Source: an uncultured Acidobacteriota bacterium (GTDB lineage Bacteria > Acidobacteriota > Thermoanaerobaculia > Gp7-AA8). From it: DNA of 64,000 nucleotides. Under the pieces are notes generated by a model. The model was not told the origin of the DNA. It searched no databases and worked only from the letters and a program-made list of their open reading frames with translations. The DNA lies in the NCBI GenBank assembly GCA_963793695.1, contig CAWCBB010000008.1:6833-70832 (forward strand), given 5' to 3'. The position numbers and the translations under genes are program-made. Each line of letters begins with the position of its first letter. The stretch's first letter is position 1. Positions 2,008 to 49,034 of the stretch are shown piece after piece.

Positions 2008-5000
2008 CTACTGGCCCGGGATGAACGTCGGATCCTGCGTCATGTTGTCGACCGTCGATCCGTACGCGACGATCTTCCCGTCCCCGCCGACCACGCGGAG
2101 CGCGACGCGCGCGTTGTACGTGGTTCCGGCGTTGAGCGTCTTGAGGATCTGGTTGAACTGGCGGAACTCGTTCGGCTTCAGAGTGAACTCGACGCGCGGG
2201 GTCACCCGCGACTCGGCCGGGAACGCGCTCAGTTCGACGCGCACTTCCTTCCCCGTGACTTCCACGATGCCGAGGTTCGAGCGGATGTTGCTCGACTGCT
2301 CGAGCTGGAGGACCTGCATCGCGCGATCGCCGAGGCCGATCGCGTCCTCCTCGGTGACGGCCGCCATGAACTGTCCGTAGCTGCCCGCTCTCGCGCTGAT
2401 CGTACGTCCGCCCGGTGACGACGAGCTCCGAGTCGGTCGCCGTCGTGATCTGGATCGCGCCTCCCGTGTTGCTCTGCCCCGAACAGCGTCGGGACGATGT
2501 CGCCGAGGGTGCGGATGGTTCCCGGGCCGATCTGGACCGTCGCCGTCTTCGCCGCGGTCGAGGCGCCGACCGGGAAGAACGCGACCGTCGCGCTCACCGA
2601 AGCGAGCCCCGCGTTGAAGACCTGGACGTCGCGTGCGCCACCGCGCCTGACCGGTGTCGAAGTGGGCGATGCCGGGCATCACGTATTTGCGCGCGCCGAT
2701 CTTCGCGAGATCGACCGCGTGCACCTGGAGCGGGTCTCCCGTGACGTTGTCGACGACCGAGGCGTACGCGGCGATCCTGTCCGTCGCCCGAGACGACCTC
2801 GACTTCGGCGCGCGGCGTCGTGACGTTCGTGAGTCCGTTCGTCGGCGAGGACCTGGTTGAGCTGGCGGTGCTCGCCGGGCTTGAGGCTCAGCGGCACGGT
2901 CAGAAGCTCGCCCCGCTCGCCGTCGAAGAAGCGGATCTCGACCGAGACCGGCTGCCCCGATGCTTCAGCCACGCCGACGTTCGTTCGGTAGCCGCTCGAC
3001 TGCGCGAGCTGCTGGAGCGACAGAATGCTCTTCTTCGCTCTCCGGCCGGAGTCGATCCGCCGACGAATGACGCGAACGGGATCGCGGGGATGTACTCGCC
3101 GAGAGTTCCCTGCGGGGTTTTGTTGTACGTCCGCGACGAGGCGAGCGAGACGAGAGAGCGCGTGACCGGAATTGCCTGCGCTCCCTTGCCCGCGCCGCGC
3201 CGTTCCGAGCGGCCGGATCTCGAGCACGCCCGTCGCGCCCTCTCCCGGCAGCGAGCCGAGCCCGTACCACTGCTTGACCACGTCGTCGAGCGCCGCGTTC
3301 TGTCCCGGCGCGAGCTCGAGCTCGCACGTCTTTCCGCCCAGCGTCGCGTCCGTTCCCGTGCTCGTCCAGAGGAGCCGGTACTTCTGCTTCTCCGAACCGA
3401 GATTGAGAACGCGGACGTCCGTTTGCCACTCGGAGTTGACGCCCGTCGCGTGCGCGACCGCCGGGATGATGAGCGATTCGGCCACAGGGGAGTCCTTCCC
3501 CTTGTTCGTGACCGGCGTGACGAGCGTGACCGAGACCGGCGTCGATCCGGTGACGGGGTCGTGTCGAGAGCCTGCTTCGCCGCCGGCGATCGCGATGAAC
3601 GTCATCGTCACCGTCCCGGTGTTCGTTCCGACCGGGAGTCCGACGGGGTTCGTGATGACGGTCACGGTCACTCCGTCCTGGCCGATGGTGCCGCCGGGCG
3701 GCTCGACGCGCATCCAGTCGCGGTCCGTCGTCGCGATGAAGGTGTAGCTCGTCTGCAGGTCCGGAGTGGGGGAGGGGATGAACAGCTGCTGCCGGATCTC
3801 CTCCTCGTTGCCGAACTGCACGACCGTCTCGGCCTCGGTGGAGGCGGGCGGCGGAAGCGGGATGACGACGATCCGGCCGACGCCGGAGAACTCGCATCCC
3901 TGCTGCGCGAGCTTGACGCGGTAGTAGTACGCGCGCGGCTCGCGTCACGCCGTGCTCGAACATCGCGAAGACGAACTCGCCCGTCGGGTCGACTTCGCCT
4001 TCCTTGTCGGCGAGGATGGTCGTGAAGCCGGCCGTGTCGGATTCCTCGAAGAGGTAGCTGCAGCCCGACCGAGACGATCGTCGCGCGAACCTCGATACGG
4101 CTTGTCCGTGGTCACCTCGCCCTGGAGCGAGAGGACCGGCGGGAAGCAGGAGACGTTCACCTGAACGGTGCGCGACTGCAGCGAGCCGCATCCTTCGGGC
4201 AGCACCGCCTCGACGTACCAGGCGAGCGCCGCGCCCGCCGGGAATGTCGGCCGCCAGCGCGGGATCGGCGGCGCTTCCGTCGACCGTCCCCGCGTTCTGG
4301 AACGCGCTTCCGTTGATCGACATGAAGAGGTCGTAACGGGCGGTACCTCACCGGCGCCCAGCGGAAGAGCACCGGCGTCTGCGTCGATCGCGTCGCTCTC
4401 GAGCGGCGCGATCGGCTCCGGAGCCCCGCTCGGGCAATCGCGAACGACGGTGATGAGACGATCCGTCGAGCTGAGGCTCGGACAGCCGTCGGCGAAGTCG
4501 GCGATCACCCGCCAGCTGAACGTGCCGAGAGACATGGAATCGTCGTCGCCATCGTGGCCGGCAGCGGCGCCGCCGGCTGCGGGATCACCGCGATTTCCTC
4601 GAGGCCGCCTTCGGGGCTGAAGATCGCGAGGTGGTACTGCGTCGCGTTCGTCGCAACGGTCCACTCGAACCGGACGTCGGGCGCGAGCTCGGCGCCCGGC
4701 TGCGGCGCGACGAGGAGCGGCGCGGAATTCGGACAGGGTTCGGCGACCGTGAAGCGGACGCACGCCGACTCGGGCGGCGTCGTGCAGCCGCTCTTCTCGG
4801 CGACGACCTTCCAGTCGTATTCGCCGGGCGCGAGGCCGCTGTACGCCATCTGCGTTCCCGTGGTGGTTCCGAGGAGCGTCGCGCAGCCGGATCCCGCGGG
4901 ACCGAGGTAGATCCTGTAGAGGTCCGCGCCGGTTCCGCCGGTCCAGGAGAGCGTCCCGTTGCCTTCGACCTGGGTACCCGAACCGGGAGCGATCGCCGAG

Positions 5001-8000
5001 ACGGCAGCGGGGCAGGGGGCCGTCTGAACGGTCACGGTGACCGTGCCGACCGCCTGCCCACCGGCCCGTCGGAAACCGTGTACGTGAACGAATCCGTCCC
5101 CGCCGAGCCGGCAGGGGTGTACGTGCAGGAGCCGGCGGGCGTGCAGGAGACCGTTCCGATCGAGCCGTTCGTCGATGAGAGAACCGAGAGCGGTCCGCCG
5201 TCGATGTCGCTGTCGTTCGACAGCACGTTGATCAAGACCGGCGCGTTCGCGGTGGTCGTCGCCGCGTCGGCGCCCGCGGTGGGCGGATCGTTGACCGGCG
5301 TCACCGTGATGGTGACCGTGCCGACCGACGAGACGAATCCGTCGCTGACCGTGTAGGTGAACGAGTCGGAACCGTTGAAGTTCGCGTTCGGCGTGTAGGT
5401 GCAGGTCGCCGTTCCGCAGGCGGCGGTCCCGTTCGTCGCCGGTGTGAATCCGGTGATCGTGAGCGGATTGCCGTTCGGATCCGTGTCGTTCAGGAGGACG
5501 TTGATGCCGAGCGACGTGTCCTCCGGATAGGTTCCGGTGTCGGGGTTCGCGACGGGTGCCGCATTCCCGGTGGTCACGAGATCGACGTACGTCGCCCCGG
5601 TCATCACGTTGAGGCTGTTTCCCCCTCCGAGGTCGGTGCCGTTCGTGGTCGCGAACGCGTTGTTCGGCGAGGGAGCGAGCGATCCGAACGTGAGGATCCG
5701 ATACGAGTTCCCGTCCACCGGGACGTACGGTGAGAGGAGCGCCACGTTCAGGGTTCCGCCGAGCGAGGCGGTGCCGGTGACGTTGAGCTGATCGAATTGC
5801 GTGCCCGCGGTGAGACCGGCCAGCTCGACGTCGAGCGAGCCGGAGGCGCCTTGCGTGTAGTTGCCGTCGATCGTGAGCGCGCCGGGCGAGGTGCCTGGCT
5901 TGACCGTGCCGCCGCTGTTGAGGACGTTGCCCGTGAACGTGCCGCCGCCCATCAGCGCGCCGCCCTGGAAATCGACCGCGCCGTTCGAGGCCGCGTTCGC
6001 GCCCGCGGCGATCGAAAAGGCTCCCGCCGTCTGGACGAACGGAGCGGTGGAAAAGTCGAGCGTTCCGGCCTGAACGTCGATCGTTCCGGCGTTCGTGACG
6101 TTCGCCGAGAGGAACTGCGAGGTTGCCGTGCCGTTGCGGACGAACGTCGCGCCGGCCTGGTTCTCGAACCGCGACGCGGCGCCGGTGCAGCAGTAGTAGT
6201 AGAACGCTCCGGTGTCCGAGCGGGTGAGGGTCGCGCCCGCGAGGTTCTCGATCGCGCCACCCTGGTTTCCGTAGACCCACCCGGTGCCGCTCCAGGTGCC
6301 GGAGCCGCCGTTGCGGAGCGTCGCGCCGAGAAGATACTTGGCCCCCGGTCCGGTGAGGTTGACGGCCCCCGGAGACGCCGCGATCTGGACGATGGTCGTT
6401 CCACCGAGGGTACCCGTTGACCAGTTCATCGTGCCGGCGACGCCGATCTGGCTCGAGCCGCCGAGCGTTCCGCCGGTGAGATCGAGGTTCTGCATCGACG
6501 CGGAGGGCGCGGTGAGCGAGAGTGTGCCGCCGGGGATCGAGGTGAGGCCGCTGTTGGCGAATGGGCCAGAGGCGTTCACCGCGCCGGTCGTGACCTCGAT
6601 CGTGCCGTTCGACGAGATCGCGCCCGAGAGCGTGTGCGTGCCGCCCGCGAAGCGCAGGATTCCCGGGGAGGTCACGCCGAACGCACCGGAGCCGGATCCG
6701 CCGCCGCTCAGCGACAGGATTCCCGAGGTGACGGCCACCGTCCCCGTGTTGTTCAGCTGCGGATAGATGGTCGTCGCGGCGGTCCCGCCCGTCTTCTGGA
6801 ACGTGCCGCTGTTGTCGATGCGTGGAGTGCCGACGCCGTTGGAGTAGATGTAGGCGACGTCGGAAGTGATGTCGAAGGTCGCCGCGTTCTGGAGGACGCC
6901 TCCGTTGTAGATGCTCAGATAGTAGGGGCCGCCGCCGTACGTCGCGTTCGAGTTGAGGACGAGGGTACGCCCGTCGAGGTACGCGTAGCCGGTGTCGTTC
7001 GGGAACGCGGCGGAGCCGCCGGCGAGGACGGTCGTGGTCCCCGTCCCGCCGAGCGTCCCGCCGCTGAACGTGAAGGCGCCGCTCACGGTGATCGCCCCGG
7101 ATCCCTGGAGCGTGCCGCCGGCGATCGTGAGGGCGGGGGAGGATGCCGCGGCGTTGAACGTGTGCGCTCCCGCGTCGACGAGCGTCAGGCCGCTCCCGGT
7201 GAGGGCGTAGCTCCCGGCGAGCGTCGTCGTCCCGTTGCTGAAGCGCATCGTTCCGGTTCCGCTCACGGCCGATGGCGCGGTCAGCGAATGCGCGCCGCCG
7301 TTGAAGCGGAGGACGGCGGGCGCGGTGGCCGTGAACATGCCGGGGCTCGTCCCGCCGCCGTTGAAGCTCAGGATTCCCGAGGTGACGGCGGTCGAGCCGC
7401 TGTTGTTGAAGCCGCAGTAGACGATGGTCTCGCCCGTCCCGGCCGTCTTCTGGAACGTACCGCTGTTGTCGATCCGGGGGGAGCCGACGCCGTTGCTGTA
7501 GAGCGGCGCGTCGTTCTGGATGTCGAACGTCCCGCTCGTCGCGAGGACGCCGCCGTTGTAGATGCTGAGGTAATACGGGCCGCCGCCGTACGTCGAGGCG
7601 GCGTTGATCGTGAGCGTCCGGCCGTCGAGGTAGGCGTATCCCGTGTTGTTCGGGAACGCGGCGGAGCCGCTCGCGAGGACGGTCGTGGTCCCCGTCCCGC
7701 CGAGCGTCCCGCCGCTGAACGTGAAGGCGCCGCTCACGGTGATCGCCCCGGATCCCTGGAGCGTGCCGCCGGCGATCGTGAGGGCGGGGGAGGATGCCGC
7801 GGCGTTGAACGTGTGCGCTCCCGCGTCGACGAGCGTCAGGCCGCTCCCGGTGAGGGCGTAGCTCCCGGCGAGCGTCGTCGTCCCGTTGCTGAAGCGCATC
7901 GTTCCGGTTCCGCTCACGGCCGATGGCGCGGTCAGCGAATGCGCGCCGCCGTTGAAGCGGAGGACGGCGGGCGCGGTGGCCGTGAACATGCCGGGGTTCG

Positions 8001-10714
8001 TCCCGCCGCCGTTGAAGCTCAGGGTCCCCGAGGTGACGGCGGTCGAGCCGCTGTTGTTGAAGCCGCAGTAGACGATGGTCTCGCCCGTCCCGGCCGTCTT
8101 CTGGAACGTGCCGCTGTTGTCGATCCGGGGGGAGCCGACGCCGTTGCTGTAGAGCGGCGCGTCGTTCTGGATGTCGAACGTCCCGCTCGTCGCGAGGACG
8201 CCGCCGTTGTAGATGCTGAGGTAATACGGGCCGCCGCCGTACGTCGAGGCGGCGTTGATCGTGAGCGTCCGGCCGTCGAGATAGGAGTAGCCGACGTCGT
8301 TGAGGAACGAGGCCGATCCGCCGGCGAGAACCGTCGTCGTGCCCGTGCCCTTGAGCGTTCCGCCGTGGAAAAGGAAGGGGCCGGTGACGCTCACCGCGCC
8401 GCTGCCCTGCATGATGCCGCCGGAGACGTTGAGCACGCCCGTCGACGCGGCCGCGTCGAACGTCGCCGTGCCGCCGCTGACGATGGTGGTTCCGGTCACC
8501 GTGTACGCGCCGGCGAGGGTGACGCTCCCGGCCGTGAACTCGACCTGTCCCGCGCCGGTGACCGTCGAGCTCGCGCTCAGGGAATGGGTTCCGTTCGAGA
8601 AGCGGAGGATGCCGGTGGAGGCGGTAAAGGTGCCGTTGCTCGTTCCGCCCCCGCTCAGCGCGAGCGTGCCCGAAGCCGCGGTGACGTTGCCGTCGTTGTT
8701 CACGGCGGGAGCGAGGGTCGTCACGAACGTTCCACCGCTCTTCGTGATCGAGCCGGTCGCCGTATTCACGATCAACGGGGTTCCCGTCCCGTATGCGTAG
8801 ATCTGGCTGTCCCCATTCAGCGAGAAGGCGGCGGAGTTCGTGAGCTGCGCTCCGTTCGCGAGGCTGAGATAGTAGGAGGGCTCGTACGTCGTGGGCCCGT
8901 TCACGGCGAGCGTATGCGCGTCGAGCGTCGTATAGCCGTAGCCCGCGGCGACACCGGCCGGGAAGAGAAGGGTCCCCGTCGCCGCGATCGTCGTCGTCGT
9001 CGCCGGGCCGCCGGTGATCGTCCCGCTGCGCCACTCCAGCGTCTTGTTGATGGTCCTGTTGGCGGCCCCGCCGAACGTGCCGCCGGTCAGCCGCAGAACC
9101 GAAACGCTGATCGTCGTGGGGCCATCCGTGTTGAGCGTGCCGGCGGCGAGCTCGGCCTCGCCGGCTCCGCCCAGCGTGCTTCCCGTGAGGAACGTGTGCG
9201 TTCCGCCGTTGAATCTGATGAGGGCGCCGCCGGACATGAGGACCTGCGCGCTGTAGGTTCCCCCGGACATCGGCGTGAGCGCTCCGGCCTGCACGGCGAT
9301 GTTTCCCGTGCTCTCGATCACGGGATAGACGACCGTCTCCGTGCCGACTCCCTGTTTGGCCAGCGTCCCGCTGTTGACGAGCCGGTTCGGGCCGGTACCG
9401 TAGGCGTAGAGGATCGCGGAGCTGGTGATGTAGAAGAGATAGGCGTTGTCGAGCGTCGCGCCGTTCGCGAGGGAGAGGTAGGTGCTCGTCGCCGCGTAGG
9501 TGGCCGTGCCCAGGTTCGTCAGCGTGTGTCCGTCGATGGTCGGGTAGCCGGGGTCTTCGGGGATGTTCAGGACCCCCGTCGACGCCGCGATCGTGGTCGT
9601 CCCGGTGCCGCTGAGCGTCCCTCCGTGAAAGTCGAACTGGTTCGTGACCGTCCGGTTCGCGGCGCCGGTCATGGTGCCGCCGTTGAGGCTGACGATCGCC
9701 GCGTTGATCGTAAGGGGTGACGCGATGTTCATCTGCCCGCTCGCGATCTCGAGCGTCCCGGCCCCGCCGATCGAGCTCGCCGCGTTGAAGGTGTGCGTTC
9801 CTCCGTTCAGCCGCAGCGTCGCGCCGCCGCCGATCGTGAACGCGCCCGTGTGGGAACCGTTCGCGCTCAGCTCGATCGTGCCCGAGCTCGCGGTCACACT
9901 GCCCGCATTGTTGAAGAGCAGATAGATGTTCGTCACGCCGGATGCCGTCGATTTCGTAGAACGAGCCGGTGTTGTCGAACGTGCCGCCCGTCGCTGTGTA
10001 GAGGATGGCATCGCTCACGACGGTGAACGTGTTGGCGTTGGTGAGGACGGCGTTGTTCTGGAGCGCGAAATAGGACGTCGTCAGGCCGTAGGTGATCGCA
10101 CCGGTGTTCGTGAGCGCCCGACCGTCGAGGACCGGGTAGCCGCCCCCCGAGAAGCTGATCGAGCCGGAGGCGGCGACCGTCGTCGATCCCGTCCCCGACA
10201 GGGTACCGCCGCCCCATGCGTAGCCGCCCGAGATCGTCAGCGCCCCCGTGCCGGTGAGGATCCCTCCCGTCTGGGAGAGGGTGCCGCCCGTCAGGACGTT
10301 CGATACGCCGTTCAGCGTGATCGTCGAGCCGGTCTGGGTGATCGTGCCGCCGAAGTCGACCGTGGTCGGTCCGTTGATCGTGAGTGCGGCGCCTGCGACC
10401 GTGAGCGAGATCGAGCTTCCGCACGTGTTGCCGCATCCGACCGTGAGCCCCGCGACCGTGGCAGTCGTGTTCACGACGACCGTGTACGTTCCGGCGCCGG
10501 TGACGTTCGCAACATCCCCCGGGCCGGGAACCACGGCGCCCGACCACTTCGTCGGGTCGTTCCAGTTTCCGGCGCCCCCCGTCCACTGATAGGTCGCGCC
10601 GAAGGAGGGCGCGGCCAGCAGGAGAAGCCCCGAAAGCAGGAGAGCCGCACGAAAAGAAAGCGATGGGGACGAGGCGCTGCGCGCCCCGCGAGTCGTTCCG
10701 TCGAGAACAAGCAT
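2008..10714 (-). CDS. giant secreted adhesin-like protein (about 2,900 aa): signal peptide, long parallel beta-helix-type repeats, cadherin-like Ca-binding repeats, Ig/FN3-like domains. Several frameshifts at the 3' end (nt 2000-5100) and one near 9950
   Basis: The start is around 10714 (MLVLDGTT...RAALLLSGLLLLAAPSFGATYQWTGGAGNWNDPTKWSGAVVPGPGDVANV). There is a repeating period of about 217 aa (GGTL.GTGTTTV.A.G...F..GG.HT..A, YLDGRTLT.N, GTFDIQNDAPLYSNG). There are VNDPPTA...NDSDIDGGPLSV and NDTDPNGNPLTITGF motifs. Two near-identical 651-bp tandem units sit at about 6900-8200. Confidence 0.75.
6900..8200. repeat. near-identical tandem duplication (2 x 651 bp) inside the adhesin gene, embedded in a larger diverged repeat array (about 5700-9900)
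   Basis: The ORF-track pairs 6992-7210 / 7643-7861 and 7235-7420 / 7886-8071 are identical apart from 1-2 residues. The 217-aa protein segments are duplicated. Confidence 0.8.
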
Positions 10715-10976
10715 GCAGGCTCCGGTCGCCGTACAACGGCCGCAAGTAGTGCCCCGCCCGCCCGAACTGCTCACTGTTGGGATCGGGGCAGTATACGGCC
10801 TGATGTGTCATTCGTCACGAGCTGGTGTGAGGTGACGTGCCTCTCGTGATGAAGTACAGCGCTGCCGAGAGAAAGTTGGCCTCCCTCAGAGCCATGCCTG
10901 TCGGAGGAAAAAGGAAAGCGGATCCGAGACGAGGAGCGTCCGAGGCCCGAGGTCTAAGGTCCAAGGCCTACGGTCG

Positions 10977-12120
10977 CTACCGGTACTTATTCGCGCCGGT
11001 ATTGAACAGGACGACGCGCGCATCGCGGGCGATCGCCGCGCGCTCGAGAAGGAGGCGGAGTCCCGCGAGCGCGGCGCCCCCCTCGGGACCGGCGTCGATC
11101 CCTTCCATCGCGCGGATCTCCGCCGCAGCCGGCTCGATCGACTCCTCCGGCACGGCGACCGCGCCTCCGCGCGACTCGCGGAGCGCCGCGAGCATCAGCC
11201 GGTCGCCCACCGCGCGCGGCACGCGGAGGCCCCAGGCCGCCGTCTTCGGGTTCTCCCACTCGGGCGCATTCTCGAGACCCTGCTCGAAGGCGCGGACGAC
11301 GGGCGCGCACCCGCGCGACTGGATGCTGAACATCCGCGGCCGCTCCGGACCGATCCATCCGAGCCGCTCCATCTCGTCGAACGCCTTCCACATCCCGATG
11401 AGGCCCGTCCCTCCGCCGGTCGGGTAGAGGATCGCGTCGGGCACTCCACCGAGCTGCTCGACGAGCTCGTACGCCCATGATCTTCTTTCCCTCGACGCGG
11501 TACGGCTCCTTGAGCGTCGAGAGGTCGAAGCCTCCCCGCTCGCGCAGCACTTCCTGGACGCGCTTTCCCGCGTCCGTGATGACGCCGCGCACCAGCTCGA
11601 CCTCGGCGCCGTACGAGCGGCACTCGTCGATCATGGACGGCGGCGTGTCGTCCGGCATCGCGATGAACACCGGGACGCCGGCGCGCGCGCCGTACGCCGC
11701 GAGGGCCGATCCGGCGTTGCCCGCGGTCGGCGCGGCCAGGAGCTGCGCGCCGAGGCGGCGCGCCATCGTGACGGCCGCGGCCATGCCGCGCGCCTTGAAC
11801 GAGCGCGTCGGGTTGAGCGATTCGTCCTTGATCAGGAGCCCGTTCATCCCGAGAGAGCGTCCGAGGCGGACCGCCGGCAGCAGGGGAGTGTCGCCTTCCC
11901 CGAGGGTGACGATGTCCCTCTGCGGAACGGGCGGGAGGACCTCGCTCCACCGCCACATCCCTCGCGGGCGCGAGCCGATCCGGGCGCGCAGCGGCGGATC
12001 GAGCCCCAGCTCGTACCGGACCAGGATCGGCGCGCCGCACGCGGGGCAGAGGTTGCGCAGGGCGTCGATCGGGGAGGACCCGTCGCAGACGGAGCAGCGG
12101 AGAAGGGCGGGGAAATTCAT
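10977..12120 (-). CDS. thrC: threonine synthase with an N-terminal Zn-ribbon; one frameshift near nt 11455
   Basis: MNFPALLRCSVCDGSSPIDALRNLCPACGAPILVRYEL...KDESLNPTRSFKARGMAAAVTMA (the PLP-lysine motif), then ...PDAILYPTGGGTGLIGMWKAFDEMERLGW in a second frame. Confidence 0.85.
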
Positions 12121-12184
12121 CGTTGATCGCAGATCCTCGATCGTTGCTTGGTTCTTGGTAGTGGTTGCTGATTGGTCGAAGCGT

Positions 12185-12366
12185 GATGTCATCCCGAGCG
12201 TAGCGAGGGATCCGGGTGGGGGCTGCGAAGAACGCAGCGGCGGTGCAGGGCGCGAAAGCCGGCATTCGCTCTGGCCGAAGGCGAATACCGACCCTCGCGC
12301 CCTCCACGGAGCCCGCGTCACGCGTCTCCCCCCGCCCAGATCCCTCGCTACGCTCGGGATGACATC
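12185..12366. mobile_element. MITE-like element, 182 bp, with 28-bp perfect terminal inverted repeats GATGTCATCCCGAGCGTAGCGAGGGATC
   Basis: The TIRs are at 12185-12212 and 12339-12366. A second, inverted copy lies at 27854-28073 with the same termini and a diverged interior. Confidence 0.65.
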
Positions 12367-12482: not shown

Positions 12483-12496
12483 GAAAGAGCCGGACA

Positions 12497-12525
12497 AAGG
12501 CCGGCTTTTTCGAGAGGCGCGTGCG
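12497..12525. terminator. probable bidirectional intrinsic terminator hairpin (AGCCGGACAAAGGCCGGCT followed by TTTTT)
   Basis: A GC-rich stem-loop with a T-run on the plus strand and CTTTCT on the minus strand, directly downstream of the lipoprotein stop at 12534. Confidence 0.5.
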
Positions 12526-12533
12526 GCGCGGCC

Positions 12534-13301
12534 CTACTGCTGCGATTTCTGCTGGATGTCCTCGAGCGCCTTCTGCGCCTCGCCCGGCTTATCCTCGAAC
12601 TTCGACATCTCGGTCGCGAGGGCGTTGAGAGTGCTCTCGTACTTGGAGAGCAGCTCGCGGTTGGCCTTGACCGAAGGGTCGACCTGCTCCTGCTGCGCCG
12701 CCATCTCTTTGCGGTTCTTGTCGTACTCGGCGAGCATCCCCGCGAGGGCCTTCTTCGCCTCGGCGTCGGTGGCCGCGTCGTGCTGCTTTTTCAGCTCGTC
12801 GTACGCCTGGTCCATCATCGCCTTCGAGCTCTGCTGGAGCGACTCGGTGAACGCCGCGCCGCTCGCCTCGAGCACGCGCTCCTTCACCCACTGGTACTCG
12901 GCGGTGTTGAAGCCCAGCTCGTGCGCGGCGCGAATGTCCGCGGTCAGGAAGTCGGCGGCCGATCCGAGGGCCTTGAACCCCGCCATGACTCCCGCGATCG
13001 ACTTCTCACCCTTCCCCTCGGCCGATTTCGCCTGCTTCTCCATCTCCTTGCGCGCCACCAGAGCGATCGCCTTTTCCTTCTCCCGGACCTTCAGGTACAT
13101 CTGAATCTGAGCGTCGGTCAGCCGGGCGTCGGCCGGGGGATCGTACGAGTCTTCCGACGTTTTCTCGAGAAGCTCCTTCGTTCCGACGTCTTCGAGGTCG
13201 TCGGAAATCGCGGCCTCATCGACCGCCTTCTTGAGTTTGCATCCAGTGGGGACGAGAAGAAGGAGAAGCAGCCCGAGGGCGAGAGCGATGGAACGACGCA
13301 T
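12534..13301 (-). CDS. hypothetical lipoprotein (lipobox LLVPTGC), charged and coiled-coil-rich
   Basis: MRRSIALALGLLLLLLVPTGCKLKK... The ORF is clean and 255 aa long. Confidence 0.75.
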   Translation of the reverse strand: MRRSIALALGLLLLLLVPTGCKLKKAVDEAAISDDLEDVGTKELLEKTSEDSYDPPADARLTDAQIQMYLKVREKEKAIALVARKEMEKQAKSAEGKGEKSIAGVMAGFKALGSAADFLTADIRAAHELGFNTAEYQWVKERVLEASGAAFTESLQQSSKAMMDQAYDELKKQHDAATDAEAKKALAGMLAEYDKNRKEMAAQQEQVDPSVKANRELLSKYESTLNALATEMSKFEDKPGEAQKALEDIQQKSQQ

Positions 13302-13363: not shown

Positions 13364-14467
13364 TCAGAACTTCCGGCCGAGCTCGCCGAACCCCGTGCGA
13401 AGGAGCTCTTTCAGCTCCGCGTAGTCCTTCCTCAGCGCATGGACGTCCGCGCGGAGCGCCTCGATTTCTCGGCGCAATCCCCCGGCGTCGATTCCCTCCG
13501 ACCGGGGCGCGGTTTTCGCGTCCGGCTCCTCGAACGCGATCGCGACGGGTAGGTCCTCGCCCAGAAGCGCCGCTTCGTCGAGAGCCTCGACGTCGTCGGC
13601 GAGCGCCACCGGGACCGGCACGTCACCGGCGATCGTGGCGGGACGCTCTCGTCCCTCCAGCAGCTGGTCGAGCGAGATCTCCTCGACTTTCTCGTAGCCG
13701 GCCGCGGGATCCCCGAACGGAGCGTCACCGAAGGGAGCGACGTCTTCCGGGGAAAACGAGGCGGCGAAGGGGTTCTGCTCGGGCTCGGTGACGTGCGGGG
13801 CGGGCGCTTCCTGCGTGGCGTGACGCTTGGACTTCTTCTCGTGTTTCGGCTTTGCCGCGGGCTTCGCGGGCGCTTTCCCCTGCAGCTTGTTGATGAGATG
13901 TTTCGCGGTGATCTTCGAGACGAGGGCGAACGTCTCCATCACGCCCTCGCCCTTGATCGCGGAGGATTCCTTCCAGGGGTAGCCTTCGAAGCCGAGCTGC
14001 TCCTCGAGCTCTTCGACCGGGAGGACGCCCGGCAGATCGCGCTTGTTGTACTGGATCACGATCGGGATGTCGTTCGTGTCGATCTCATTCTCACGGAGGT
14101 TCTCCATGAGGTTCTCGAAGCTCTCGCGGTTCGACTCGACGAGCGAGGGCTGGGAATCGGCGACGAAGACGACGGCGTCCGCTCCCTTGAGGACGAGCTT
14201 GCGGGTCTCGTTGTAGAAGACCTGGCCGGGGACCGTGTAGAGCTGGATCTTGAGGTTGAACGCGCCGATCTTGCCCACGTCCACCGGGAGAAGGTCGAAG
14301 AACAGCGTCCGGTCGGTCTTGGTCGCGAGCGAGAGCATCTTGCCGCGAGCCTTCGGGTCGAGCTTGTCGAAGATGACCAGAAGGTTCGTCGTCTTCCCGC
14401 AGAGGCCGGGGCCGTAATAGACGATCTTCGCGGTCATCTCGCGCGTTGCGTGATTGAACAGGACCAT
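13364..14467 (-). CDS. MglA-family Ras-like small GTPase with a C-terminal extension of about 170 aa that is low-complexity and coiled-coil
   Basis: The N-terminal 195 aa align to Myxococcus MglA (KIVYYGPGLCGKTTNL...TDRTLFFDLLP...LYTVPGQVFY...VFVADSQ...IQYNKRDLP). Then comes a KAPAKPAAKPKHEKKSKR... tail ending in a coiled-coil. Confidence 0.8.
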   Translation of the reverse strand: MVLFNHATREMTAKIVYYGPGLCGKTTNLLVIFDKLDPKARGKMLSLATKTDRTLFFDLLPVDVGKIGAFNLKIQLYTVPGQVFYNETRKLVLKGADAVVFVADSQPSLVESNRESFENLMENLRENEIDTNDIPIVIQYNKRDLPGVLPVEELEEQLGFEGYPWKESSAIKGEGVMETFALVSKITAKHLINKLQGKAPAKPAAKPKHEKKSKRHATQEAPAPHVTEPEQNPFAASFSPEDVAPFGDAPFGDPAAGYEKVEEISLDQLLEGRERPATIAGDVPVPVALADDVEALDEAALLGEDLPVAIAFEEPDAKTAPRSEGIDAGGLRREIEALRADVHALRKDYAELKELLRTGFGELGRKF

Positions 14468-14549
14468 CGATCTTCCTTCGAGATTGGCTGGAGGTCAGTA
14501 TCGCACCCGGGGCGGGCGGGGGAAAGGGGAGGGGGGGCAGAGGCAGAGA

Positions 14550-14680
14550 CAAATGCAAAATGCAAAATGCAGAATGCAAAATGAAAAATGCAGAAAGGGC
14601 CCGCGCGACGGTCAGGCCGCGCCCGGCGTGCTCTCGCCCGTTTTTGGACTTTTCATTTTGCATTCTGCATTTTGCATTCG
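14550..14680. repeat. heptamer array family A: inverted pair (AAATGCA)n ... (TGCATTT)n with a 40-nt GC-rich spacer
   Basis: The left arm caaatgcaaaatgcaaaatgcagaatgcaaaatgaaaaatgcagaaaggg and the right arm ccgtttttggacttttcattttgcattctgcattttgcattcg would form a stem of about 30 bp. Confidence 0.8.
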
Positions 14681-14697: not shown

Positions 14698-14988
14698 CTA
14701 TGGGCCGTCATCCTGGCGCAGAACGACCACCGTCGCTCCCCACCCTCCGCCGCTGGCGTCGGCGTCGGCGTAGCTCTCGACGAACTCGAGGCGCTCGAGC
14801 AGGCTGCGGAGGATCCGCCGCTGCACCCCCATGCCTCTGCCGTGGATCAGCCGCACCTGCCGGAATCCCTTCGCCCGCGCCGCCTGGAGGTACTCGCTCG
14901 CCACATCCGCGACCTCGGCGGGACGGAACGGATGGAGGTCGATCGCGTCTTCGATCGGAATCTCGATCGGCTCGTCGGGGTCGCGCAT
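14698..14988 (-). CDS. Smr-domain protein, small and standalone
   Basis: [70 protein letters not shown] is the Smr signature (LDLHG...IHGKG). Confidence 0.7.
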
Positions 14989-15136
14989 GGGAGTGGGGGC
15001 GGCGATGATATCGTTCAGGAGCCGCAGGGGGAAGTCGTCCGGGGAAAGGGAGCTCTGGCACGGTCGCCGGTCCCGTTCCCATGCCCCCTTTCCCCTGACT
15101 ACGTTTCCCCGTCCACTCCAAGAGGAACCAACCCAG

Positions 15137-16127
15137 ATGACTACCCTTCTCGAAGAGCTCCAGCGCGTCGGGAGCTTCGAATATACGGCGGAGGACGCCC
15201 GGCGGTTCGAAGAGCTGCACGAAGAGATCCGCGCGCTCAAGAAGGAGCGGAACGCCGTCATCGTCGCGCACAACTACTACCGGCCCGAGATCCTGAAGGT
15301 CGCCGACTTCGTGGGCGATTCGCTCGAGCTCGCGCTGATGGCCTCGAAGGTGACCGAGGCCGACATCATCGATTTCTGCGGCGTCCACTTCATGGCGGAG
15401 ACCGCGAAGATCGTAAACCCCTCGAAGACGGTCCTCCTGCCCAACCTCCTGGCGGGATGTCAGCTCGCCGACTCGGCGCCTGCCGAGGACCTGGCCGCGA
15501 AGATCGAGGAGCTGAAGCGCGAGTATCCCGGACCTGGCCGTCGTCAGCTACGTCAACACGACCGCGGCCGTCAAAGCGCTCTCCACGATCATCTGCACCT
15601 CCGCGAACGCCGCGCGGATGGTCCGCTCGCTCCCGAACCGCAACATCCTCTTCGTTCCCGACCGCAACCTGGCGAACCACGTCGCCGAGCAGGTGCCGGA
15701 GAAGAACATCATTCCGTGGGACGGTTTCTGCTACGTCCATCAGCAGATCACGCCGGGAGAAGTGCAGCGGATCCGCGAGACCGATCCGGATCTGAAGGTC
15801 CTCGTCCACCCCGAATGCCGCCCCGACGTGGCGAGCCTCGCCGACGCGGTCCTCTCCACCTCCGGGATGGTCCGCTATGCGAAGGAGAACGAAGGGAAGC
15901 GCTTCCTCGTGGTCACCGAGTGCGGACTGTCCGACCGGCTCGCGATGGAAGTCCCCGAAAAGCAGTTCCTCAGGGGATGCCGCCTCTGCACCTTCATGAA
16001 GGTGACCACGCTCGAGGACGTCCGCGATTCGCTCAGGCACGTCCGGTACGAGATCGAAGTCCCCGAGCCGATCCGCGTCGAGGCGGAGCGGGCGCTTCGA
16101 GGGATGTTTCAGGTGGAGCAGCGATGA
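15137..16127 (+). CDS. nadA: quinolinate synthase A; one frameshift near nt 15530
   Basis: [20 protein letters not shown]...[28 protein letters not shown]...[13 protein letters not shown], then [15 protein letters not shown]...[11 protein letters not shown]...VHPECRPDV in a second frame. Confidence 0.85.
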
Positions 16128-35099: not shown

Positions 35100-35215
35100 G
35101 AAATGCAAAATGCAGAATGCAAAATGTAAAGTCCCCAAAGGCGGTCGCCGGGCGGTCTCCTTTTTGGATTTTTCATTTTGTATTTTGCCCGGGTCCGAGA
35201 TCCGAGGTCCGAGGT
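35100..35215. repeat. heptamer array family A inverted pair (AAATGCAAAATGCAGAATGCAAAATG ... CATTTTGTATTTTGC), followed by (TCCGAGR)x3
   Basis: The arms are at 35100-35135 and 35157-35188, and tccgagatccgaggtccgaggt is at 35191-35215. It is intercistronic, 35 bp upstream of the squalene-synthase-like start and just after the oxidoreductase stop. Confidence 0.8.
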
Positions 35216-40457: not shown

Positions 40458-40582
40458 AAAAAATGCAAAATGCAGAATGCAAAATGAAAAATACAAAAAG
40501 GGCGTGATGCTCACGTCTCGCAGGAAAGCCCCGATTCCCTCCTCTTTTTGTGTTTGACATTTTGCATTTTGCATTCTGCATT
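40458..40582. repeat. heptamer array family A inverted pair
   Basis: aaaaaaatgcaaaatgcagaatgcaaaatgaaaaatacaaaaaggg ... cctctttttgtgtttgacattttgcattttgcattctgcatt, between oppF and the tolC-like gene. Confidence 0.85.
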
Positions 40583-47664: not shown

Positions 47665-47722
47665 ATCCTCGTAACTTTCCAGCGTATTTTGGGCCAACAA
47701 CGGAAACATCCGAGGTGATTCG

Positions 47723-48903
47723 GTGCACATCAACGACCTTCTGAAGATCGCCGCCGAGCGGCGCGCGTCCGACCTCCACATCAAGGTCGGCTCCCATCCC
47801 GTCATCCGCGTCGACGGCGAGCTGATCCCGCTCGTCGAGCTCAAGCGCCTCATGCAGGAAGACACCATCGCGATGGCGTTCTCGATGATGTCCTCCCGGC
47901 AGAAGGAGAAGTTCAAGAACAACTTCGAGATCGACTTCGCCTACTCGGTCCCCGGCCTCGGCCGGTTCCGCTGCAACATCTTCCAGCAGCGCGGCACGGT
48001 CGGCCTCGTCCTCCGCGTCATTCCCGGTGAAGATCAACTACGATCCGCGAGCTGATGCTCCCGAACATCCTCGAGAAGATCTGCGAGGAGCGGCGCGGGC
48101 TGATCCTCTGCACCGGGACGACGGGCTCGGGCAAGTCGACCACGCTCGCGGCGATGATCGACTACATCAACTCGCACCGCACCGAGCACATCATCACCGT
48201 CGAGGACCCGATCGAGTTCCTCCACCGCGACAAGAAGTCGATCGTCAATCAGCGCGAGGTCGAGGTCGACACGAAGAGCTTCTCGCAGGCCCTCCGCTCG
48301 GCCCTCCGCCAGGACCCCGACGTCATCCTCGTCGGCGAGATGCGCGACTACGAGACGATCGAGACGGCGCTGACCGCCGCCGAGACCGGCCACCTCGTCC
48401 TCTCGACGCTCCACACCCTCGACGCGACCGAGACGATCAACCGCATCATCTCCGTCTTCCCGCCGCACCAGCAGAAGCAGATCCGCCTGCAGCTCGCGGC
48501 CGTCCTCAAGGCGGTCGTCTCGCTCCGCCTCCTCCCGCGCGCGGACGGTCTGGGCCGCGTGCCGGCGGCCGAGGTCCTGATCAGCACGAACTACATCCGG
48601 GACTGCATCGAGAACAAGGAAAAGACGAAGCTGATCAAGGACGCGATCACGCAGGGGACCTCGCAGTACGGGATGCAGACGTTCGACCAGTCGATCTACA
48701 CGCTCTATCGCAACGGCCTGATCACCCTCGACGAGGCGCTGCGCCGCGCCACGAACCCGGACGAGTTCAAGCTCAAGATCCAGGGCGTCCAGTCGACCTC
48801 CGACATTGCGCGCGAGGAGATGGACGGGCAGCTCAAGGTCGCCTCCGACAACGATCCGTTCAGCGAGGAGTCGCCGTTCGATTTCGGGAACCAGCTGCCG
48901 TAG
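47723..48903 (+). CDS. pilT: type IV pilus twitching-motility ATPase PilT; one frameshift near nt 48030
   Basis: GTG start after GAGGTGA. MHINDLLKIAAERRASDLHIKVGSHPVIRVDGELIPL... Second frame: LILCTGTTGSGKSTTLAAMIDYIN...VEDPIEFLHRDKKSIVNQREV...MQTFDQSIYTLYRNGLITLDEAL. Confidence 0.85.
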
Positions 48904-48933: not shown

Positions 48934-49034
48934 CAAATGCAAAATGCAAAATGCAAAATGAAAAATACAAAAAGGGGCTGATGCCATAATCCCCCTTTTG
49001 GACTTTTCATTTTGCATTTTGCATTTTGCATTTG
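48934..49034. repeat. heptamer array family A inverted pair with a near-perfect 40-bp stem and a 13-nt loop
   Basis: caaatgcaaaatgcaaaatgcaaaatgaaaaatacaaaaagggg ctgatgccataat ccccttttggacttttcattttgcattttgcattttgcatttg, between pilT and recX. Confidence 0.9.

What the first reader, a model, noticed from the sequence alone, without database searches (positions are those of the whole stretch)
13364..14467. MglA-family GTPase fused to a 170-aa low-complexity coiled-coil tail, with no mglB partner nearby
Residues 1-195 are a close match to the motility and polarity GTPase MglA, which carries Thr in place of the Ras Gln61 (here LYTVPGQVFY is retained). The protein then continues with a KAPAKPAAKPK-rich linker and an acidic and amphipathic coiled-coil (EALRADVHALRKDYAELKELL). 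Canonical MglA is a single domain and is encoded with its GAP MglB, and none is adjacent here. Neighbours are a lipoprotein and an Smr protein, and pilT is 33 kb away. This could represent a self-contained polarity module or a new MglA subfamily.
Basis: partly seen in the sequence, partly recalled or inferred. Interest (0 to 1): 0.55.

Follow-up and report, generated by a model that had tools for sequence, protein, structure and literature searches.

The report
Long-tailed MglA switch of Thermoanaerobaculia
This gene encodes a normal-looking MglA polarity/motility GTPase carrying a 172-residue, mostly disordered tail with one sharply conserved short motif and a terminal coiled coil; this long form is the conserved form found in at least 80 uncultured Thermoanaerobaculia (Acidobacteriota) genomes and has not been described, but it is a variation on a known theme.

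Summary
Window 13364-14467 (-) is an intact 367-aa ORF. Residues 1-191 align without gaps to M. xanthus MglA (53% identity; PDB E 2.6e-61) and keep G21, R53, T78 and Q82. The 172-aa tail is real, not a frameshift product. All 82 versions examined (81 related loci from Thermoanaerobaculia/Acidobacteriota metagenome-assembled genomes (MAGs) plus the window) are 339-402 aa. The tail is not uniformly low-complexity. It has a basic Pro/Lys linker, NPF/PF motifs, a near-invariant 27-aa acidic motif (YEKMEEVSLEQLLEGRERPAT, 75% identity against 23-36% for the flanks), an acidic disordered stretch, and a ~40-aa heptad helix (pLDDT >90). No Roadblock/MglB gene lies in the 64-kb window or within 10 kb in any of the 81 loci. 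The conserved downstream partner is a lineage-specific lipoprotein. I could not test whether an mglB, or a second short mglA, lies elsewhere in these genomes. Best reading: a lineage-specific long form of group-1 MglA, a working GTP switch tethered or dimerised by its coiled coil, with partner-binding motifs in the linker. Extended orphan MglA paralogues (SofG and others) are already known, so this is a new variant of a known kind, of moderate interest.

The parts
13364..14467 (-). Complete CDS of the long-form MglA (367 aa plus stop)
   Evidence: ORF list. Full-length homologues at 60-86% identity.
14472..14478 (-). Shine-Dalgarno-like AAGGAAG, 4 nt upstream of the ATG
   Evidence: Read directly from the sequence.
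13883..14467 (-). MglA GTPase domain, residues 1-195 (P-loop G19-T26 with G21, R53/T54, T78-x-x-G-Q82, N141-K-R-D144)
   Evidence: PDB phmmer E 2.6e-61. BLASTP 53% identity, gapless. Foldseek top 14 hits are all MglA, TM 0.77-0.87. These residues are invariant in 116/116 sequences. Mean family identity 86%.
13775..13882 (-). Basic Pro/Lys/Ala-rich linker, residues 196-231
   Evidence: Median net charge +3, 21% Pro, variable length 29-51 aa. 27% mean identity. pLDDT below 50.
13700..13774 (-). NPF / PF motif region, residues 232-256 (family consensus: N-P-F-[AG]-D-S then P-F-[PG]-[ED]); this protein carries a third PF
   Evidence: P233 115/116, F234 113/116, S237 107/116, P245 114/116, F246 108/116.
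13619..13699 (-). Conserved acidic motif, residues 257-283 (GYEKVEEISLDQLLEGRERPATIAGDV)
   Evidence: Y258, E263, L266, L269, G272 and R275 are invariant in 116/116. 75% mean identity against 23-36% in flanking tail segments. Near-fixed length of 25-28 aa. Short helix at 266-269, pLDDT about 50, not confidently docked.
13487..13618 (-). Acidic disordered segment, residues 284-327
   Evidence: Median net charge -10, 30% identity, pLDDT below 50.
13367..13486 (-). C-terminal heptad-repeat helix, residues 328-367 (probable coiled coil)
   Evidence: AlphaFold helix 328-366 with pLDDT 88-96. In this protein 82% of a/d positions are strongly hydrophobic, against 11% elsewhere; the family medians are 64% and 15%, although sequence identity is only 23%.
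12534..13301 (-). Downstream, probably co-transcribed lineage-specific lipoprotein (255 aa), 62 bp after the MglA stop
   Evidence: Same strand and within 400 bp downstream in 73 of 82 versions, median gap 65 bp. No Pfam, NCBIfam or PDB match. Only 809 database relatives; all named ones are Thermoanaerobaculia/Acidobacteria. Lipobox G-C conserved in 104/118. No terminator-like site between the two genes.
12488..12506 (-). Terminator-like hairpin plus T-run after the lipoprotein gene
   Evidence: Consensus scan. This is pattern evidence only.

Best explanation
This is the Thermoanaerobaculia long form of group-1 MglA. The N-terminal 195 residues are a complete, catalytically competent MglA switch: P-loop with G21, intrinsic arginine finger R53, T78 and catalytic Q82. 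It should cycle between GTP and GDP states as MglA does (shown by sequence and fold; the biochemistry is inferred). The 172-residue tail is an intrinsically disordered tether. It carries two conserved short linear motifs (NPF/PF, and the acidic YEKMEEVSLEQLLEGRERPAT motif) and ends in a ~40-residue heptad helix. I infer that the terminal helix forms a coiled coil that either dimerises the GTPase or docks it to a coiled-coil scaffold. I also infer that the linker motifs are binding sites for a regulator or effector, or for the protein's own basic alpha5 pocket. The tail would then supply localisation or adaptor functions that separate proteins provide in Myxococcus. The gene is an 'orphan' in the Wuichet and Sogaard-Andersen sense, meaning no MglB within four genes. 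It is probably co-transcribed with a lineage-specific lipoprotein of unknown role. The likely cellular role is spatial control of a polar or envelope process such as type IV pili; this last step rests only on analogy with MglA, SofG and Bdellovibrio MglA.
For: The catalytic residues are invariant in 116/116 family members and the key motifs are present in 81-82 of 82 loci. The long form is the conserved form: all 82 proteins are 339-402 aa, and the genomes are Thermoanaerobaculia/Acidobacteriota MAGs. Tail anatomy and differential conservation: 86% identity in the GTPase, 75% in the motif, 23-36% elsewhere. The tail is disordered apart from a high-confidence terminal helix in two AlphaFold runs. 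Heptad periodicity is kept despite sequence drift. A tail-only search of 1.84e9 representatives returned 24 hits; the 11 whose sequences I read were 10 fragments of this family and one generic coiled-coil match. No MglB or Roadblock gene is in the window or in 1.2 Mb of related loci. That probe detects Thermus MglB at E 3e-17, so it works across phyla. The residues of the MxMglA allosteric pocket used by the MglB Ct-helix (L64, I67, K181, K185) are kept: I/V64 and V/I67 in all sequences, K/R181 in 93/116, K185 in 116/116 and K/R189 in 116/116.
Against: There is no functional data for any member. AlphaFold does not dock the conserved motif on the GTPase domain (pLDDT about 50). The oligomeric state could not be modelled. 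The NadA-Smr-MglA-lipoprotein-PALP order is conserved as a block with housekeeping genes, so adjacency may reflect shared ancestry rather than function. A lipoprotein is extracytoplasmic and cannot touch a cytoplasmic GTPase directly. The only motility gene in the 64 kb is pilT, 33 kb away.
Confidence: 0.6

Rival explanations
1. It is a SofG-like accessory paralogue. These genomes would also carry a canonical short mglA with mglB elsewhere, and this long protein would do a specialised side job, as SofG does when it positions the pilus ATPases PilB and PilT.
For: In the 2014 survey, extended orphan group-1 MglAs (SofG MXAN_6703 298 aa, MXAN_2693 372 aa, GSU1930 291 aa, sce2413 433 aa) sit in genomes that also have a 195-aa MglA coupled to MglB. 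G21 is invariant here, and G21 correlates with the presence of MglB.
Against: There is no N-terminal extension. The GTPase domain is 52-54% identical to both Myxococcus and Thermus MglA, which is the level expected of a cross-phylum orthologue. The tail has no detectable similarity to anything outside the family. The gene sits in a fixed syntenic position in every genome sampled. Presence of a second mglA or an mglB could not be tested.
Confidence: 0.3
2. It is a self-regulating MglA. The conserved acidic motif (residues 257-283) would act like the MglB C-terminal helix. It would bind the basic alpha5 / beta2-beta3 allosteric pocket in cis, or in trans across a coiled-coil dimer, and so tune nucleotide exchange without MglB.
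For: The pocket residues defined in MxMglA (L64, I67, K181, K185) are conserved here. One search reports that a basic alpha5 co-varies with acidic Ct-helices in MglB. The motif is acidic, partly helical and nearly invariant. No MglB gene is nearby.
Against: Profile-profile comparison of the family with MglB finds nothing (1.4% probability). The hydrophobic spacing differs from EISDDDIDNLF. AlphaFold leaves the motif undocked. The window protein itself has A181 rather than K.
Confidence: 0.1
3. The C-terminal helix is a membrane-targeting amphipathic helix rather than a coiled coil, anchoring MglA at the inner membrane.
For: The helix is amphipathic and terminal, preceded by a long flexible linker. 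This is reminiscent of the membrane-targeting sequences of MinD and FtsA (my own knowledge).
Against: It is about 40 residues with a strict 3-4 a/d spacing. The other positions are charged, and the median net charge is -3. This is typical of coiled coils and unfavourable for binding anionic membranes.
Confidence: 0.07
4. It is an artefact: a frameshift or lost stop in an error-prone assembly fused mglA to downstream sequence.
For: The window contains several apparent frameshifts in other genes (PALP, nadA, pilT, the large adhesin-like gene).
Against: The same 339-402 aa architecture occurs in 81 independent loci and more than 115 database proteins from different projects. The tail has coding GC3 and a motif under strong purifying selection.
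Confidence: 0.01

Closest known systems
MglA (M. xanthus MXAN_1925; T. thermophilus TTHA1131), group 1 of the MglA family (Wuichet and Sogaard-Andersen 2015, PMC4316618)
   Same: Gapless 53% identity over 191 residues. Same P-loop, intrinsic Arg53, Thr78 in place of the usual Asp, Gln82 and NKRD. Same fold.
   Different: The protein is 367 aa rather than about 195 aa, because of a conserved disordered tail with motifs and a coiled coil. No mglB lies within 10 kb in any of the 81 related loci or anywhere in the 64-kb window. The next gene is a lipoprotein.
SofG (MXAN_6703) and other extended orphan group-1 MglA paralogues (MXAN_2693, GSU1930, sce2413, Fisuc_0226)
   Same: MglA-family GTPases that are longer than 195 aa; all except Fisuc_0226, which sits next to an mglB, are not coupled to mglB.
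   Different: This protein has no N-terminal extension, and its tail is not detectably related to any other protein. Its GTPase domain is close to MglA proper. No PATAN neighbour was seen. Whether it coexists with a canonical MglA/MglB pair is unknown.
Bdellovibrio bacteriovorus MglA (Bd3734), an orphan MglA working without MglB (PMC3983030)
   Same: An MglA with no adjacent mglB. It shows that MglA can act on type IV pilus-related polarity without MglB.
   Different: The Bdellovibrio protein is 197 aa and has Ser21, predicted to lock it in the GTP state. Here Gly21 is invariant, so hydrolysis and GAP sensitivity are probably retained.
MglB C-terminal helix / allosteric pocket of MglA (Baranwal et al. 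2019, PMC6785124)
   Same: An acidic, short helical element next to a disordered linker. The basic alpha5 and hydrophobic beta2-beta3 pocket residues are conserved in this family.
   Different: The element is part of the GTPase polypeptide itself, not of a Roadblock protein. There is no significant profile similarity and no predicted docking. This is a resemblance only.

Membership tests
MglA family, group 1 | Ras-like small GTPase fold whose closest sequence and structure relatives are MglA | tested here: met
   PDB phmmer E 2.6e-61 to MglA against 7e-07 for the best non-MglA hit. Foldseek ranks 1-14 are all MglA, at E 1e-15 to 3e-19, against 5e-09 for the best eukaryotic GTPase.
MglA family, group 1 | G3 motif TxxGQ: Thr78 in place of the conserved Asp, plus catalytic Gln82 | tested here: met
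   LYTVPGQ is present. T78 and Q82 are invariant in 116/116, and TVPGQ is present in 82/82 loci.
MglA family, group 1 | Intrinsic arginine finger (Arg53) in switch I | tested here: met
   TDRT is aligned to MxMglA R53. R53 is invariant in 116/116.
MglA family, group 1 | P-loop GxxxxGKT with Gly21, and G4 motif NKxD | tested here: met
   GPGLCGKT and NKRD are present. Both occur in 82/82 loci.
MglA family, group 1 | Single-domain protein of about 190-200 aa (canonical form) | tested here: not met
   The protein is 367 aa. The family range is 339-402 aa, against 168-233 aa for most group-1 entries in Table S2.
MglA family, group 1 | Coupled to an MglB (Roadblock/LC7) gene within four genes | tested here: not met
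   No PF03259 hit in the window. No MxMglB phmmer or HMM hit in 1.2 Mb of six-frame ORFs from the window and 81 loci; the best E-value is 0.89. The gene therefore counts as an orphan MglA.
MglA family, group 1 | An MglB GAP (and RomR/RomX) present anywhere in the same genome | not testable with these tools
   Only 64 kb of a 223-kb contig is held. An MglB database search returned only Myxococcota.
SofG-like paralogues | N-terminal extension ahead of the GTPase domain | tested here: not met
   The alignment to MglA starts at residue 1. Only 9 in-frame codons lie upstream of the ATG before a stop.
SofG-like paralogues | C-terminal extension homologous to that of SofG or other extended paralogues | tested here: not met
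   The tail-only phmmer search of 1.84e9 representatives gave 24 hits. The 11 whose sequences were read were 10 fragments of this family and one generic coiled-coil match.
SofG-like paralogues | Coexistence with a canonical MglA/MglB pair in the same genome | not testable with these tools
Coiled coil (C-terminal helix) | Long helix with conserved heptad a/d hydrophobic periodicity | tested here: met
   Helix 328-366 has pLDDT 88-96. a/d positions are 82% hydrophobic here and 64% at the family median, against 11-15% at other positions.
Coiled coil (C-terminal helix) | Self-association or association with a partner helix | not testable with these tools
   Only single-chain prediction is offered.
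MglB Ct-helix-like allosteric element | Sequence or profile similarity to the MglB C-terminal helix | tested here: not met
   hhalign of the family against the MglB alignment gives 1.4% probability, and the single hit does not fall in the tail.
MglB Ct-helix-like allosteric element | Basic alpha5 and hydrophobic beta2-beta3 pocket retained on the GTPase | tested here: met
   I/V64 and V/I67 in all sequences, K/R181 in 93/116, K185 in 116/116, K/R189 in 116/116.

The most novel reading that the evidence does not exclude
The long-form MglA would be a self-contained switch. Its invariant acidic motif would act as a built-in counterpart of the MglB or RomR acidic helix, binding the allosteric alpha5 pocket in cis or across a coiled-coil dimer. 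Nucleotide exchange and localisation would then be encoded in one polypeptide, and Thermoanaerobaculia would run MglA-type polarity without any Roadblock partner.
Probability: 0.1. Interest if true: 0.7.

Novelty: new variant of a known kind. Interest (0 to 1): 0.4.

Why it matters
MglA is the best-studied bacterial Ras-like polarity switch, and its regulation is understood almost entirely through separate partner proteins: MglB, RomR/RomX and MglC. This long form appears to be the conserved form across a widespread soil and sediment class of Acidobacteriota. It carries a near-invariant short linear motif and a coiled coil on the GTPase itself. That gives a natural experiment on how small-GTPase regulation or localisation can be built into the protein. 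It also gives a defined 27-residue peptide to use as bait for the unknown partner. It extends the catalogue of MglA-family architectures beyond the 2014 survey, which listed only 194-196 aa forms in Acidobacteria. The value is limited by the lack of cultured, tractable hosts and by the unresolved question of whether MglB exists elsewhere in these genomes.

Tried and rejected
1. Frameshift or fusion artefact. This was rejected: 81 independent loci and more than 115 database proteins share the architecture.

2. MglB in the window or near homologues. Pfam scans of all GC3-supported frames found none. Phmmer and an HMM built from MglB found nothing in 1.2 Mb.

3. MglB in Thermoanaerobaculia through a database search with MxMglB. 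The 120 listed hits are 76-95% identical to Myxococcus MglB, apart from one partial 70% match, and every named one is myxobacterial, so this was uninformative.

4. Context retrieval for the exact protein. It is not on record.

5. Tail as a known domain. Pfam and NCBIfam match only the GTPase part. The PDB sequence search of the tail gave only noise. The tail-only search of the representative library gave only family fragments.

6. Tail motif as an MglB Ct-helix homologue. hhalign was negative.

7. Docking of the motif on the GTPase domain. Two AlphaFold runs (40 and 116 sequences) leave it at pLDDT about 50.

8. Lipoprotein function. There are no Pfam, NCBIfam or PDB matches, and it has only 809 lineage-restricted relatives.

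9. Literature on MglA with Thermoanaerobaculia, or MglB with Acidobacteriota. No papers were found.

Full report
**Observation**

The ORF at window 13364-14467 (- strand) is intact. It starts with ATG and encodes 367 aa. An AAGGAAG ribosome-binding-like site lies 4 nt upstream. The stop-to-stop frame leaves only nine codons upstream of the ATG, so there is no N-terminal extension. Pfam and NCBIfam see only generic Arf/Ras/small_GTP signals in residues 12-185, because neither library reported an MglA-specific model.

Against PDB sequences the four distinct best hits are all MglA: M. xanthus at E 2.6e-61 and T. thermophilus at 2.1e-58. The next hit, Arl8, is at 7e-07. BLASTP against MxMglA gives 102/191 identities with no gap from residue 1. 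A Foldseek search with the AlphaFold model ranks 14 MglA chains first (TM 0.77-0.87 on the target), about ten orders of magnitude ahead of eukaryotic GTPases.

**Is the tail real?**

The window contains several genes that look frameshifted relative to intact homologues: the PALP enzyme, nadA, pilT and a large adhesin-like gene. A fusion artefact therefore had to be excluded. Three results exclude it.
- The protein database holds more than 115 full-length relatives of 350-409 aa. They are 60-86% identical over 94-100% of the query. Those that carry a name are Thermoanaerobaculia or Acidobacteriota MAG proteins.
- A scan of one genome per GTDB species found 119 stretches encoding a relative. The best 80 loci are all Thermoanaerobaculia/Acidobacteriota MAGs.
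- In all 82 versions (81 loci plus the window) the protein is 339-402 aa (median 366) and has G21, TVPGQ and NKRD.

The tail also has coding-type codon-position GC of 0.77/0.46/0.84.

**Anatomy of the tail**

Alignment of 116 members (A2) splits the protein into segments with very different conservation.

| Segment | Residues | Mean identity to the window protein | Other properties |
|---|---|---|---|
| GTPase domain | 1-195 | 86% | catalytic residues invariant |
| Basic Pro/Lys linker | 196-231 | 27% | median net charge +3, length 29-51 aa |
| NPF/PF region | 232-256 | 36% overall | P233, F234, S237, P245, F246 in at least 107/116 |
| Acidic motif | 257-283 | 75% | near-fixed length 25-28 aa |
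| Acidic stretch | 284-327 | 30% | median net charge -10 |
| Terminal helix | 328-367 | 23% | heptad pattern kept |

- The acidic motif has the consensus G-Y-E-K-M-E-E-V-S-L-E-Q-L-L-E-G-R-E-R-P-A-T. Y258, E263, L266, L269, G272 and R275 are invariant in 116/116.
- The terminal helix keeps a 3-4 hydrophobic spacing despite low identity. In this protein 82% of a/d positions are strongly hydrophobic, against 11% elsewhere. The family medians are 64% and 15%.

Two AlphaFold runs (40 and 116 sequences) agree. The tail has pLDDT below 50 except for a helix at 328-366 with pLDDT 88-96. The conserved motif forms at most one helical turn, with pLDDT about 50.

The tail is therefore a disordered tether with short linear motifs and a terminal coiled-coil-type helix. 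It is not a 170-residue coiled coil and it is not featureless low complexity.

A tail-only phmmer search of 1.84 billion cluster representatives returned 24 hits. I read 11 of them: 10 are fragments of this same family and one is generic coiled-coil noise. The tail is not a module shared with other proteins.

**Genomic context**

Pfam scans of every GC3-supported frame across the 64 kb found no Roadblock/LC7 domain, no receiver domain and no PATAN domain. The only motility-related gene is a PilT-like ATPase at 47.7-48.9 kb.

M. xanthus MglB detects Thermus MglB at E 3e-17, so it works as a cross-phylum probe. It gave no hit at E below 10 against all six-frame ORFs of at least 50 aa from the window and the 81 loci, 1.2 Mb in total. 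An HMM built from MglB sequences gave nothing better than E 0.89. By the criterion of Wuichet and Sogaard-Andersen (MglB within four genes), the whole family is orphan.

The local gene order is conserved: NadA (opposite strand), Smr, then MglA, a 255-aa protein and a PALP enzyme on one strand. The 255-aa gene follows on the same strand within 400 bp in 73 of 82 versions, with a median gap of 65 bp. No terminator-like site lies between it and mglA, and one follows it.

That 255-aa protein has a conserved lipobox. It has no Pfam, NCBIfam or PDB match. It has only 809 database relatives, and all named ones come from the same lineage. Because housekeeping genes are part of the same conserved block, the adjacency is weak evidence of functional linkage. 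A lipoprotein would also lie on the other side of the inner membrane from the GTPase.

**How it most likely works**

What is shown: the domain has every residue that defines MglA catalysis. G21, R53, T54, T78 and Q82 are invariant in 116/116.

What follows from the literature: Bdellovibrio's MglB-less MglA carries S21, predicted to lock it in the GTP state, and G21 correlates with the presence of MglB. An invariant G21 here argues for a cycling, GAP-responsive switch. A GAP encoded elsewhere in the genome is therefore plausible.

What is inferred: the terminal heptad helix dimerises the protein or docks it on a coiled-coil scaffold. The two conserved linker motifs bind partners.

One specific possibility concerns the allosteric pocket of MxMglA that receives the acidic C-terminal helix of MglB (L64, I67, K181, K185). 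This pocket is retained: I/V64, V/I67, K/R181 in 93/116, K185 in 116/116 and K/R189 in 116/116. The tail motif is acidic and partly helical, so it might occupy this pocket in cis or across a dimer. The tests I could run do not support this. hhalign of the family against MglB is negative, and AlphaFold does not dock the motif. I keep it as a 10% rival.

**Comparison with what is known**

The protein passes every sequence and fold test for group-1 MglA. It fails the 'single domain' and 'coupled to MglB' features.

Extended orphan group-1 MglAs are already catalogued: SofG (298 aa), MXAN_2693 (372 aa), GSU1930 (291 aa) and sce2413 (433 aa). Fisuc_0226 (313 aa) is also extended but sits next to an mglB. 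Acidobacteria in that survey had only 194-196 aa forms.

Unlike SofG, this protein has no N-terminal extension. Its GTPase domain is at MglA-orthologue distance from both Myxococcus and Thermus MglA (52-54%). Its tail is unrelated to anything else.

No paper in the searchable library mentions MglA together with Thermoanaerobaculia, or MglB together with Acidobacteriota. Database names for these proteins are generic or misleading, such as 'GTPase domain-containing protein' and 'signal recognition particle receptor subunit beta'.

**Limits**

I could not search the rest of this genome, or of any related genome, for mglB, a second mglA, or romR/romX. Whether this is the sole MglA or a paralogue is therefore open. 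Oligomerisation and motif binding are inferences.

**Verdict**

This is a new variant of a known kind, of moderate interest.

Noticed in passing
window 14552-14678, 35102-35128, 40462-40582, 48936-49032: An intergenic repeat built from tandem 7-bp units (TGCATTY), arranged at three of its four sites as inverted pairs that could form long AT-rich hairpins. There are 18 matches against 0 expected by chance. One copy lies between Smr and the long mglA, and another lies just after pilT. The element is absent from all 81 related loci, so it is specific to this genome.
   Followed up: partly
window 10977-12321 (-), 14831-16127 (+), 47675-48900 (+), 4505-10774 (-): The PALP (threonine-synthase-like) gene, nadA, pilT and a large adhesin-like gene each continue in a second reading frame. 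For PALP and nadA, homologues in related loci are single ORFs. This pattern suggests indel errors of a long-read assembly, or pseudogenes. The mglA ORF itself is intact.
   Followed up: partly
window 14698-14988 (-) compared with loci L001-L081: The small Smr-domain gene is co-directional with the long mglA in the window and in 10 loci. It is on the opposite strand in 68 loci, which suggests a local inversion in some lineages.
   Followed up: no
window 12534-13301 (-): A 255-aa helical lipoprotein with a conserved lipobox and several conserved blocks. It has no Pfam, NCBIfam or PDB match and only about 800 relatives, all named ones from Thermoanaerobaculia/Acidobacteria. It almost always lies directly downstream of the long mglA. 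Its function is unknown.
   Followed up: partly
window 13700-13774 (-), residues 232-256; residue 181: Compared with the family consensus, this copy has an insertion that adds a third PF motif (NPFAASFSPEDVAPFGDAPFGD). It also has Ala rather than the usual Lys/Arg at alpha5 position 181.
   Followed up: no
window 4505-10774 (-): A very large Gly/Thr/Ser-rich predicted surface protein. It contains at least one long, nearly identical internal tandem duplication: the segment '...AASSPALTIAGGTLQGSGAITVSGAFTFSGGTLGGTGTTTVLA...' occurs twice. A syntenic 1865-aa protein is present in L001.
   Followed up: no
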